NCBI GenBank assembly: GCA_029856125.1
Contig: JAHQWJ010000136.1
Span: 1-64,000, forward strand
DNA length: 64,000 nt
Source: Promethearchaeia archaeon
GTDB lineage: Archaea > Asgardarchaeota > Lokiarchaeia > Sigyniarchaeales > SOKP01
Direction: 5' to 3'
Numbering within the stretch: the stretch's first letter is position 1; each line of letters begins with the position of its first letter. Below, one piece after another: positions 15,024-27,441 of the stretch. The notes beneath the pieces were generated by a model, which ran no database searches, was not told the DNA's origin, and saw only the letters and a program-made list of their open reading frames with translations. The position numbers and the translations under genes were made by a program.

Positions 15024-15220
15024 GTGATAATCATTAACCACATTTACGATTCCGGGTTCGGATGGTACCGGGTACTATCCTGTATTACCATGACCGTAGC
15101 CGAAGCTACAGTTTGCAAGTTCCCATAGATTTTCAACTACAGTACTATCTGCAACGCAAAACAGTTTAACTTCCGGCGTTGTAGCTAATTGCTACGAGAT
15201 TATGTGGTTAAAACTATCAC
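15024..15220 (-). other. 5S precursor processing stem with BHB-like motif
   Basis: 15220-15202 pairs with 15043-15024 (19 bp, one bulge); ACG/CGU outer helix, CCGG/CCGG central helix (15176-15173 with 15055-15052), bulges AA(G) and AAU. Confidence 0.75.
15050..15170 (-). rRNA. rrf: 5S rRNA, circularly permuted gene (3' half - UUCG - 5' half)
   Basis: Minus strand reads GUUAAACUGUUUUGCGUUGCAGAUAGUACUGUAGUUGAAAAUCUAUGGGAACUUGCAAACUGUAGC-UUCG-GCUACGGUCAUGGUAAUACAGGAUAGUACCCGGUACCAUCCGAACCCGGAA. It contains the 5S hallmarks CCGAAC, GAAGUUAA (across the junction), AGUA/GAA loop E and UGGGAA. Helices I-V all pair. Length 121 nt. Confidence 0.88.
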
Positions 15221-18643: not shown

Positions 18644-20220
18644 ATGGTTTATCAATTAGAAGATGTAAAAGGCATCGGTTCTGAAATGGCTAAAAAATTA
18701 AAAGAAGCAGGCATTACGTCTGTTGAAATTTTAGCCTCGTCTAAGCCAGACAATATTGTGAAACTAAAAATCAAAGGTATTGGCAATGCAACAGCCTTGA
18801 GATTTATAAAAAGCGCAGAATCATTATTGAAGGAGCAAGCACCAGAAGTAGAAACTCCAAAACTAGATGTAATAGAGAAACCCAAAAAAGCAAAAGCAAC
18901 AAAAAAGGCAAAGCCAGGAAAAAGCACTAACCTTAAAGAACTAATAAAACAACAAGCAGAATGCAATATTGGACTAGTGGGCCATGTAGATCATGGAATG
19001 AATTAGTCGTATCGACAATTCCTATAAAGACCACGCTAGTCAAAGCTTTAACGGGTGATTGGACTGATAGACACTCTGAAGAACAAGAACGGGGAATTTC
19101 AATTAAATTGGGTTATTCTAACGCAACAATTTTGTATTGTCCTGAGTGCGACGAATATTTAACATACTATATGGCAGAGACTGCTAGAAAAAAAGGAAAA
19201 CCTAGATTTAATTGTCCAAGCTGTTCAGCGACCTTAGAATTTAAAAGAAATATCTCCTTTGTTGATGCTCCAGGTCACGAAATTTTAATGGCTACAATGC
19301 TGAGCGGAGCTTCCTTAATGAACGGTGCTTGTTTGTTAATTTCAGCTGATGAGAAATGTCCTCAGCCACAAACTAGAGAACATTTAGGTGCGTTGAAAAT
19401 TGCTAACATAGAGAACATTATAATTATACAAAATAAAATTGATGCTGTTTCAAAAGAACAAGCTTTAGAAAATTATAAACAGATTAAAGAATTTGTGAAG
19501 GATACTATAGCTCAAAATGCTCCTATAATTCCCGTTTCTGCCGTATTTGGAGCAAATCTTAATTTAATTGTTCGAGCATTTGAAGAAATAATTAAATCAC
19601 CAAAAATTCAAGAGGACGAGGAGTTCCAATTTTTAGTTGCTCGTTCATTCGATATAAATCGCCCCGGCACGGAAATTAACGATTTAAACGGTGGGGTAAT
19701 TGGTGGATCGGTTTTAAAAGGAAAGGTTCAAGTTGGAGAAGTAATTGAGATAAGACCGGGATTACGAGTAAAAAATAAATATCAACCGCTCAGAACCAAA
19801 ATAGCTAGCATAAGTCAAGGATCTAATTTATTAGAAGAAGCCAAGCCAGGAGGGCTAATTGGATTAGGGACCATGTTAGATCCTGCTTTGACGAGGGGAG
19901 ATTCTCTAATAGGACACCTAGTTGGTAGGCCTGACACATTGCCTGAAATACTTTCTGAAGTCGAAGTACAAGTAAACCTTTTGGAAAGAGTGCTGGGATC
20001 GGAAGTACAAATGAAAGTTCAACAGTTAAAACACAACGAGAAGTTATTACTAGTCGTTGGAACTGAAAAAACAGCTGGAACTGTTATAAAAATCTTAAAA
20101 AATTCCTATATACTTAGTTTAACTCCACCAATTTGTGCTCCGGTGAATTCAATATTTGCGATTTCAAGAATTATAAATCGGCGTTATCGTTTAATAGGTT
20201 ACGGTAAAGAGGTAAACTAA
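18644..20220 (+). CDS. eif2g: Translation initiation factor aIF2 gamma with N-terminal helix-hairpin-helix domain; two exons (18644-18998 + 19028-20220), 515 aa after splicing
   Basis: ORF 18644..19006 ends '...NIGLVGHVDHG' and ORF 18961..20220 continues 'KTTLVKALTG...EEQERGISIKLGY...DAPGHE...NKID...RYRLIGYG'. Removing 29 nt gives a continuous 1548-nt frame. Confidence 0.92.
18999..19027 (+). other. 29-nt bulge-helix-bulge (BHB) mRNA intron
   Basis: Central 4-bp helix AUGG(18993-96)/CUAU(19022-25), 3-nt bulges AAU(18997-99) and AAA(19026-28), intron hairpin GAAUU-A-GUCG-UAU-CGAC-AAUUC, exon pairs UC/GA. Confidence 0.88.
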
Positions 20221-26166: not shown

Positions 26167-27441
26167 TTATATCGGTGTTTCTGCTCCCCACAGATCTAAT
26201 GCTTGTTTTAATTCAGCATGAGTTTTAGCGTATTCTTTTACGCTAATGTTATCCATATAAGCATCAATTGCTTGCCTTAAGGCCTTCGCACCGCTTCGTG
26301 TACCACCGGGGTGACCAAGCACACCTCCTCCGACTTGAACCGCAATATCCATTGATAAAAGCTCTATTAAACGATGAATTATTCCTGGATGTACTCCTCC
26401 GGAGCATACGCTTAAAACATTTTTCATTCCGTACCAATTCTGCTCTAAGACCTCTAAATCGGCCTTGTTAGAATTTTGAGCAATCTTCTTATAATTATTC
26501 AACACTTCTGTTTTATCACCTGCTAATTTTCCTAAACCTCCAATGTGGAGCTGATCTACGCCTTGCATTCTCGCTATTTCAGCAAGTACTTTCATGCTCA
26601 TCCCGTGATTTGGATTTCTATCAAATGCAGCATGAAACGCTCTATGAGCATGTATCGCTAAACCTAATTTTTCACATTCCTTTCTAACTGTTTGAACAGC
26701 CGCCCAACCAATAGTCAATATATCGATCATAACATATTCGTTGTTAAAATCTTTTACTAACTTCGCGCGACGCTTCATTTCGTCAACTTCAGAGGTAATA
26801 TTTATTAAATAACTTTTTCTTTCTCCTGTTTCATTTTCTGCTTTATCTCTCATTTTCATACTAAGGTCGAGCCTTTTTTCGAATCTATTAAACCTCTGAT
26901 TCGATAAGTTTTCGTCGTCTTTTAATAGATCTACTCCTCCTGTCCAGATTTCGTACCCGTGTTGAGCGTGCTCCTCTGCATAATACCCTACTTTTGGTTT
27001 CGGAACAGTAGCTGTAATTGGTCTCTTCTTAACTTTAAGTAAATCCCTAATTCCCTTTATCCCATACTGAGGGCCTTTAAAGGAATTTAATATGTTTTTA
27101 GGCCACTTCACATCGACTAACCTTAGACCATCTAAAGCTTTCATACCAAAAATATTTCCGGCAATAGAACTTAAAATTTGAGGCATATTTCCTTCCTCAA
27201 ATAAATCGTTGGGATATGCGATTTTAACATAACTATCATTTATATCATAAACTTTAGCACTTAAAGCTCGAATATGTTCAGGAATTTTAAGTGTCGTCCA
27301 AGTACCGTTACTGCTTTCAGCAGCAACCCTAATAGCTACTTTTTCAATTGAAAAACCGCTGGCAGGTTTAATTTTAAACAAACAAATTAGGTCTTCCTCA
27401 TTTGGTTCATACGCTAAATCTAAAAAATCTTCATATTTAAT
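26167..27441 (-). CDS. rbcL: Form III RuBisCO large subunit (probable ATT start at 27441)
   Basis: 'AAESSNGTWT', 'KPKVG', 'GGVDLLKDDE', 'HAHRAFH', 'SGG', 'GGGVLGHP'; frame extends 20 codons upstream of the TTG call. Confidence 0.93.
   Translation of the reverse strand: MKYEDFLDLAYEPNEEDLICLFKIKPASGFSIEKVAIRVAAESSNGTWTTLKIPEHIRALSAKVYDINDSYVKIAYPNDLFEEGNMPQILSSIAGNIFGMKALDGLRLVDVKWPKNILNSFKGPQYGIKGIRDLLKVKKRPITATVPKPKVGYYAEEHAQHGYEIWTGGVDLLKDDENLSNQRFNRFEKRLDLSMKMRDKAENETGERKSYLINITSEVDEMKRRAKLVKDFNNEYVMIDILTIGWAAVQTVRKECEKLGLAIHAHRAFHAAFDRNPNHGMSMKVLAEIARMQGVDQLHIGGLGKLAGDKTEVLNNYKKIAQNSNKADLEVLEQNWYGMKNVLSVCSGGVHPGIIHRLIELLSMDIAVQVGGGVLGHPGGTRSGAKALRQAIDAYMDNISVKEYAKTHAELKQALDLWGAETPI

What the first reader, a model, noticed from the sequence alone, without database searches (positions are those of the whole stretch)
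18991..19032. Canonical BHB intron inside the P-loop of the essential aIF2-gamma gene
SEEN: the invariant GHVDHGKTT motif is split. CAT GGA A (to 18998) is followed by 29 nt (TGAATTAGTCGTATCGACAATTCCTATAA, containing an in-frame TAG) and then AG ACC ACG. The RNA folds as a strict hBHBh' motif: exon pairs U18991-A19030 and C18992-G19029; 4-bp central helix AUGG/CUAU (one G-U); 3-nt bulges AAU and AAA on opposite strands; and a 9-bp intron hairpin. ESTABLISHED: the archaeal splicing endonuclease EndA cuts after the second nucleotide of each bulge and RtcB ligates. Applied here, that removes exactly 18999-19027 and gives H-G-K-T-T in a 515-aa frame. The well-known archaeal mRNA intron example is crenarchaeal cbf5. 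INFERENCE: this is a spliced protein-coding gene in an Asgard archaeon. Production of the core initiation GTPase would depend on the tRNA-splicing machinery, conceptually like RtcB-ligated, frame-switching XBP1 splicing. Standard annotation would call it a frameshifted pseudogene.
Basis: partly seen in the sequence, partly recalled or inferred. Interest (0 to 1): 0.96.

Follow-up and report, generated by a model that had tools for sequence, protein, structure and literature searches.

The report
tRNA-type intron splits Asgard aIF2-gamma gene
The only gene found for an essential translation-initiation GTPase in this Asgard (Loki-type) archaeon is broken by a 29-base insert shaped like a tRNA intron, so the message very probably has to be cut and rejoined by the tRNA-splicing enzymes, a kind of splicing the papers searched report for the coding part of only one other archaeal gene (cbf5).

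Summary
Observation confirmed; interpretation supported. Removing 18999-19027 restores GHVDHGKTT in a 515-aa aIF2-gamma, the single copy found. The insert is no assembly error: ten further assemblies of the species carry it. It sits at the same site in 30 of 125 family genomes (9 genera) and one Bathyarchaeon, and one base further on in a distant Asgard family. Lengths are 29, 30 or 32 nt, always blocking translation. The bulge-helix-bulge pairs covary (87% paired; slid controls 53% or less). Two EndA subunits and RtcB are present. One contig from a run labelled metatranscriptomic, about 99% identical, lacks exactly these 29 nt. That is probably spliced mRNA, but the tool rates the run as probably DNA. 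Presence and absence travel with a short divergent flank patch, pointing to recombination rather than cDNA-type loss. At least five other genes of this genome carry similar candidate introns. Caveats: the motif is not the predicted ground-state fold here, and regulation is untested. No paper found describes it; the closest is crenarchaeal cbf5. This scan has found the same intron before in several other genomes.

The parts
18644..18998 (+). aIF2-gamma exon 1: N-terminal helix-hairpin-helix domain (Pfam HHH_5, residues 5-58), Lys-rich linker and first half of the P-loop (GHVDHG plus first base of the Lys codon)
   Evidence: collinear with uninterrupted 515-550 aa orthologues
18999..19027 (+). 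29-nt BHB-type intron in phase 1 of the invariant P-loop Lys codon; in-frame TAG at 19004-19006; internal hairpin 19000-19021
19028..20220 (+). aIF2-gamma exon 2: rest of G domain with zinc-ribbon-like CxxC insert, domain II and C-terminal domain
   Evidence: NCBIfam PRK04000 E 7.6e-156; Pfam GTP_EFTU and eIF2_C; intronless orthologue matches solved aIF2-gamma 1S0U, E 1.4e-142
18991..19030 (+). Bulge-helix-bulge motif: exon helix 18991-18992/19029-19030, central helix 18993-18996/19022-19025, bulges 18997-18999 and 19026-19028; predicted cuts after 18998 and 19027
18982..18996 (+). Competing exon-only hairpin (18982-18986 with 18992-18996) that sequesters the 5' strand of the central helix in the predicted fold
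   Evidence: prediction only
18961..20220 (+). Spurious 419-aa ORF called by gene finders; it runs through the intron in the exon-2 frame and lacks GHVDHG

Best explanation
The insert is a genuine pre-mRNA intron of the archaeal tRNA type. Shown: it interrupts the invariant P-loop Lys codon of the single aIF2-gamma gene, and unspliced translation stops two codons later (120-aa HhH fragment). Shown: exon and intron can form a bulge-helix-bulge whose pairs are preserved across relatives. Established for tRNA, rRNA and cbf5 mRNA, inferred here: the splicing endonuclease EndA (two paralogues, probably (alpha-beta)2) cuts after the second base of each bulge and RtcB joins the exons, giving the 515-aa protein. 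Splicing is obligatory; the simplest reading is constitutive removal of a tolerated insert, kept because only exact loss is viable in an invariant motif. Inferred: across lineages the intron-bearing and intron-free states are exchanged as a short recombinant patch of about 50-60 bp.
For: Same site in 30 of 125 family genomes, 9 genera. 37 distinct intron sequences of 29, 30 or 32 nt, each giving a stop within 2-13 codons if unspliced; central helix 4/4 paired in 27 and 3/4 in 10. Covariation over 35 sequences: 87% of cells paired against 74% shuffled (0/500) and 29-53% in slid controls; 6 pairs with two-sided changes. Exon-intron compensatory changes: AUGG/CCAU to ACGG/CCGU (G195) and UGGC/GCCA to CGGC/GCCG (G172, G173). 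His codon is CAT in 27/28 intron-bearing genes and 20/55 intron-free genes (kin are not independent). EndA x2 and RtcB intact. Run X1: a 389-nt contig over 18759-19175 with 3 substitutions lacks exactly the 29 nt; only 1 of 55 intron-free genes has that CAT GGA AAG junction, the nearest intron-free DNA differs by 28 substitutions plus indels there, and no intact conspecific 515-aa protein appeared among cluster representatives or listed members. A circular junction at a BHB site of the neighbouring permuted 5S gene appears in RNA run X8 with 0 differences. Flank divergence within 30 nt either side of the site is 5-14 for intron+/intron- pairs and 1-5 for intron+/intron+ pairs, e.g. G191/G194 8 against about 1.2 per 60 nt elsewhere.
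Against: No unambiguous RNA read spans the junction: X1 is labelled metatranscriptomic but WGS strategy, and the tool rates it probably DNA; it is one depth-5 contig that also has a 1-nt insertion in an A run. The BHB is not the predicted ground state in this genome's context, and the exon helix is only 2 bp and broken in part of the relatives (78.6% paired). No in vitro cleavage. The ten same-species assemblies were retrieved through the truncated 120-aa product, so they could not have shown an intron-free strain.
Confidence: 0.92

Rival explanations
1. Translational recoding (frameshift, bypass or readthrough) lets ribosomes step over the insert without RNA cutting.
For: A hairpin and an in-frame stop follow the take-off point.
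Against: Relatives need different frame changes (29, 30, 32 nt), and the 30-nt versions keep the frame but hold a stop. Extra residues inside the P-loop would not be tolerated (established GTPase structure). What covaries is exon-intron pairing with 3-nt bulges, the EndA signature.
Confidence: 0.02
2. The gene is naturally split: a free HhH protein plus an N-terminally truncated aIF2-gamma started at 18961 or further on, or a decaying pseudogene rescued by another copy.
For: Gene callers produce exactly these two proteins.
Against: The second ORF lacks GHVDHG; no other copy was found; both exons are conserved and collinear with intact orthologues; upstream start context is not conserved across intron lengths.
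Confidence: 0.02
3. Assembly or sequencing artefact.
For: None found. One bin (G004, 8% contamination) holds both an intron-free gene and an intron-bearing fragment.
Against: Ten other assemblies of the species and 37 distinct natural variants. A true artefact-like case, a tandem duplication in a Parcubacteria contig, has no BHB.
Confidence: 0.005
4. Spliced as proposed, but splicing is regulated: the competing exon hairpin or EndA/RtcB supply gates aIF2-gamma output, as in XBP1/HAC1.
For: Competing hairpin predicted in the window's clade. Intron identity to other genera stays 70-76% for some lineages while four-fold sites are saturated at 31-36%. Other candidate introns hit histones, uL11 and elf1. 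Negative regulation was proposed for cbf5 (PMC2738675).
Against: About three quarters of family members lack the intron, including 95-98% identical sisters. The competing fold is absent in many relatives, where the central helix has probability above 0.9. Recombinational spread explains the sequence conservation equally well.
Confidence: 0.15

Closest known systems
cbf5 (pseudouridine synthase) pre-mRNA intron of Desulfurococcales and Sulfolobales (Watanabe 2002; Yokobori 2009, PMC2738675)
   Same: Short (16-44 bp there, 29-32 here), no ORF, BHB or relaxed BHB at the borders, interrupts the codon of a catalytic residue, variable interior, patchy presence among relatives, hetero-oligomeric EndA.
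   Different: Different gene (translation GTPase P-loop) and lineage (Asgard, one Bathyarchaeon). Splicing was shown by cDNA for cbf5 and is only hinted here. Far more turnover (20 changes or more among 83 genes). Flank divergence points to DNA patch exchange, whereas reverse transcription was proposed for cbf5 loss. Several genes per genome.
Archaeal tRNA introns, including the heavily interrupted Asgard tRNA genes (bioRxiv 10.64898/2026.10.13.758758)
   Same: Same motif, size range and presumed enzymes; repeated gains in Asgard lineages; tandem introns a few bases apart (G172).
   Different: That preprint treats tRNA genes only (no occurrence of 'mRNA' or 'cbf5').
HVO_1309 5' UTR BHB intron of Haloferax volcanii (PMC7714728)
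   Same: mRNA substrate of the splicing endonuclease.
   Different: Lies in the untranslated leader, so the reading frame does not depend on it.
XBP1/HAC1 non-spliceosomal splicing (PMC13149111; RtcB role per abstract of PMC8718801)
   Same: Short intron cut by a protein nuclease and rejoined by a tRNA-type ligase; changes the reading frame.
   Different: Nuclease is IRE1 acting on two stem-loops, and the event is stress-regulated; neither applies on present evidence. Analogy, not membership.

Membership tests
EndA-dependent (BHB) pre-mRNA intron, cbf5 type | Borders form a 3-nt bulge / 4-bp helix / 3-nt bulge motif | tested here: met
   not the predicted ground state in long context
EndA-dependent (BHB) pre-mRNA intron, cbf5 type | Cutting after the second bulge base restores the conserved protein exactly | tested here: met
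   holds for all 37 variants
EndA-dependent (BHB) pre-mRNA intron, cbf5 type | Structure conserved while the interior varies | tested here: met
EndA-dependent (BHB) pre-mRNA intron, cbf5 type | Host encodes EndA (hetero-oligomeric type) and a ligase | tested here: met
   Two EndA paralogues above the TIGR00324 cut-off, one with Tyr/His/Lys and one without the His (read); RtcB E 2.6e-170. Subunit architecture is inferred.
EndA-dependent (BHB) pre-mRNA intron, cbf5 type | Spliced mRNA detected | tested here: inconclusive
   Exact junction in one contig of run X1, RNA origin uncertain; an RNA-run contig (X5, 1 difference) stops at 18998 with 4 unaligned letters
EndA-dependent (BHB) pre-mRNA intron, cbf5 type | Cleavage by EndA in vitro | not testable with these tools
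   needs bench assay
Self-splicing group I or II intron, or homing intron | Ribozyme core or encoded endonuclease | tested here: not met
   29 nt, no ORF, no Rfam match up to E 1, no second copy in the genome
IRE1-type regulated splicing (XBP1/HAC1) | Stress-regulated cleavage at two stem-loops | not testable with these tools
   Geometry is BHB, not two separate stem-loops; regulation and an IRE1 homologue were not examined
Archaeal aIF2-gamma | G domain, domain II and eIF2_C; family model above cut-off | tested here: met
   PRK04000 519 bits against cut-off 315 from exon 2 alone

The most novel reading that the evidence does not exclude
EndA/RtcB splicing of coding sequences is a regulated layer of gene expression in some Asgard lineages: micro-introns in invariant motifs of aIF2-gamma, histones, uL11, elf1 and others tie translation and chromatin supply to the tRNA-splicing machinery, a prokaryotic forerunner of non-spliceosomal regulated mRNA splicing.
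Probability: 0.15. Interest if true: 0.95.

Novelty: new member of a known kind. Interest (0 to 1): 0.76.

Why it matters
Papers found here name cbf5 as the only archaeal coding sequence with a BHB intron. An obligatory intron in a core initiation factor, with several more per genome, would turn a lone curiosity into a class and show intron-split essential genes in the closest prokaryotic relatives of eukaryotes. It also has a practical cost: databases hold false 120-aa and 419/349-aa proteins for this locus, which affects gene inventories and marker phylogenies. The flank pattern offers a testable route for how short archaeal introns come and go, which the Asgard tRNA preprint leaves open. 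The prediction is cheap to test with raw reads of named runs or a 60-nt substrate.

Tried and rejected
Ab initio genome scan for BHB plus joined reading frames: it recovered this intron and the hydrolase one, but the mirrored-geometry control gave nearly as many hits (148 against 130), so it was dropped for a homology-based census. First homology census missed short exons, including this one; it was rewritten. Pattern hits in G316 and G335 read as small-GTPase GAVGKTTL in another frame, and the Parcubacteria hit is a tandem duplication: rejected. RNA runs X5, X7, X8 gave mostly relatives at 85-95% and no contig bridging the site; lack of cover proves nothing. Depth could not be used to decide whether X1 is RNA. 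A pattern search of 100 more genomes of the Bathyarchaeon's class found none; the pattern is strict, so this is 'not found', not absence. Promoter scan uninformative, at chance level and for the wrong promoter type. Rfam: no match. Exact look-up of the spliced protein was not possible because the joined sequence has no reference. Eight literature searches found no report of this intron; most subscription journals are not covered. Direction of change (gain or loss) could not be settled: Fitch 20 changes, 28 losses under single gain, 22 gains under no loss; shuffled labels average 23.7, 25 of 500 at or below 20.

Full report
Observation. The sequence is as described. Exon 1 starts at 18644 and ends in the P-loop at 18998; 29 nt follow; exon 2 runs 19028-20220. 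Removal gives one 515-aa frame with GHVDHGKTT. Of the three equivalent deletions, only 18999-19027 corresponds to cuts after the second base of two 3-nt bulges around a 4-bp helix. No random genomic site of 20,000 and no intron shuffle of 20,000 reached the observed value of my BHB score. One qualification: the complete motif is 1.5 kcal/mol above the local minimum, and with 25 nt or more of flank ViennaRNA prefers an exon hairpin that takes the 5' strand of the central helix. The intron hairpin itself is stable in every context.

The gene. Exon 2 alone passes the NCBIfam cut-off for aIF2-gamma, an intron-free orthologue matches solved aIF2-gamma structures, and exon 1 carries a helix-hairpin-helix domain. 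tblastn and the eIF2_C model find one copy in a 99% complete genome. Named relatives are Promethearchaeota, that is Loki-type Asgard archaea. Gene callers report a 120-aa protein and a 419-aa or 349-aa protein without GHVDHG rather than a pseudogene.

Not an artefact. Ten further assemblies with 0-4 differences over the gene carry the insert; they were found through the truncated product, so they cannot exclude an intron-free strain. In the family, 125 genomes hold the gene and 30, in 9 genera, have an insert at this site. With metagenome contigs there are 37 distinct sequences of 29, 30 or 32 nt, each leading to a stop within 2-13 codons if not removed. A Bathyarchaeota genome (B24-2) has a 29-nt insert at the same position. 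Two genomes of a distant Asgard family have one a single base further on, and G172 has a second, 33-nt one in the preceding His codon.

Structure is what is conserved. On 35 aligned sequences the pairs I named are formed in 87% of cells, against 74% after shuffling and at most 53% when slid; six pairs show two-sided changes. Relatedness can inflate the shuffle test, so the individual cases matter more: where the His codon is CAC rather than CAT, the intron partner changes from A to G (G195; G173 against G172). The machinery is present: two EndA paralogues, one with the catalytic Tyr, His and Lys and one lacking the His, and an intact RtcB.

RNA evidence. One contig of run X1 covers 18759-19175 with 3 substitutions, one extra A in an A run, and exactly the 29 nt missing. 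The submitter calls the library metatranscriptomic, but its strategy is WGS and the tool rates it probably DNA. Three points favour a spliced transcript over an intron-free strain: only 1 of 55 intron-free genes has the CAT GGA AAG junction; the nearest intron-free DNA differs by 28 substitutions plus indels in that interval; and no intact conspecific protein turned up. I put this at about 70% spliced RNA. It is a hint, not proof. Separately, RNA run X8 holds a circular junction with no mismatch at the BHB site of the permuted 5S gene 4 kb away, which suggests that BHB cutting and ligation are active in this organism.

Evolution. On a gene tree of 84 family members, presence is patchy down to sister species: at least 20 changes. 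Direction cannot be settled. Close pairs that differ in the intron also differ unusually within 30 nt either side of the site (G191/G194 8 against about 1.2 per 60 nt elsewhere; G003/G007 11 against about 2.6; G254/G224 14 against about 3), whereas pairs that both have it differ little there (1-5). Loss through a cDNA of the cell's own mRNA, proposed for cbf5 (PMC2738675), would leave flanks unchanged. Exchange of a short DNA patch at the most conserved motif of the gene fits better. This is inference from a few pairs.

Not alone. Using proteins from 2.0 Mb of an intron-free relative (G032) and 0.4 Mb of G172, a census over 418 and 598 partly overlapping loci of this genome found six disruptive inserts of 28-33 nt with BHB borders: aIF2-gamma, two histones, uL11, an alpha/beta hydrolase and elf1 (these names rest on recognisable motifs, not family scans). 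G032 showed none in 638 loci. G172 showed about nine in 267 loci, among them cbf5 at the catalytic Asp codon, the position known from Crenarchaeota, which serves as a positive control. Earlier notes of this scan had pointed to elf1, the hydrolase, a histone and cobO and to this same aIF2-gamma intron in other genomes.

Mechanism and rivals. Best reading (0.92): obligatory EndA/RtcB splicing, most simply constitutive. The broken frame, the motif, its covariation and the enzymes are shown; cleavage and ligation are inferred from tRNA, rRNA and cbf5. Recoding fails because relatives need different frame changes. A natural split fails because the second protein lacks half the P-loop. Regulated splicing (0.15) is compatible with the best reading but has no direct support, and most relatives do without the intron.

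Comparison and novelty. It meets every cbf5-type feature that could be tested; spliced RNA is inconclusive and in vitro cleavage untestable here. A 2020 paper lists only cbf5 and a Haloferax 5' UTR as mRNA substrates (PMC7714728), a 2026 Asgard preprint covers tRNAs only, and eight searches found no report on aIF2-gamma, with the limit that most subscription journals are not searched. Verdict: a new member of a known but so far nearly singleton kind. Interest 0.76.

Noticed in passing
window 15050-15170 (-): Circularly permuted 5S rRNA-like gene of 121 nt between two CCGGAA copies that form a BHB (central helix CCGG/CCGG). RNA run X8 has a contig with the circular junction, 0 differences, depth 46. 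Re-permuted it folds like 5S; Rfam misses it; no other copy in the assembly.
   Followed up: partly
window 18644-18830 (+): aIF2-gamma of this family carries an N-terminal helix-hairpin-helix domain plus a Lys-rich linker; the sister family has an unrelated Lys/Ser/Thr-rich extension of about 110 aa instead.
   Followed up: partly
G000 C8:64406-64435 (+), C82:17966-17995 (-), C72:4371-4398 (+), C63:73143-73175 (+), C63:106711-106740 (+): Candidate BHB introns of 28-33 nt in two histones, uL11, an alpha/beta hydrolase and elf1 of the same genome.
   Followed up: partly
L064:1500-1600 (-), G172 C1 near 849900: aIF2-gamma of G172 has two BHB introns (33 and 29 nt) separated by a tiny exon inside the P-loop.
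   Followed up: yes
G172 C1: 835887 (cbf5), 806573 (aIF5B P-loop), 836938, 804315, 964013, 615266, 996133, 996247, 711449: About nine disruptive BHB-like inserts in 267 conserved loci of a 400-kb stretch; cbf5 is split at the catalytic Asp codon as in Crenarchaeota.
   Followed up: partly
L207:6376-6430 (+): Bathyarchaeota archaeon B24-2 has a 29-nt BHB insert at the same aIF2-gamma position; none found in 100 other genomes of its class.
   Followed up: yes
G004 C106 and C165 (L009, L040): One bin holds an intron-free gene and an intron-bearing fragment whose intron is identical to that of G050; probably contamination (8%), possibly co-existing alleles.
   Followed up: no
L219:6141-6195 (+): Parcubacteria GTPase with a 29-nt tandem duplication of the P-loop codons, no BHB; likely assembly error or pseudogene.
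   Followed up: yes
L024 near 300-330 (G001 C94): aIF2-gamma of G001 has a frameshift about 25 codons after the P-loop; not examined for an intron.
   Followed up: no
G000 whole genome: ARAGORN finds only 17 tRNA genes, 10 with introns, in a 99% complete genome, consistent with many tRNAs hidden by non-canonical introns.
   Followed up: no
window 26167-27381 (-): RuBisCO large-subunit family gene.
   Followed up: no
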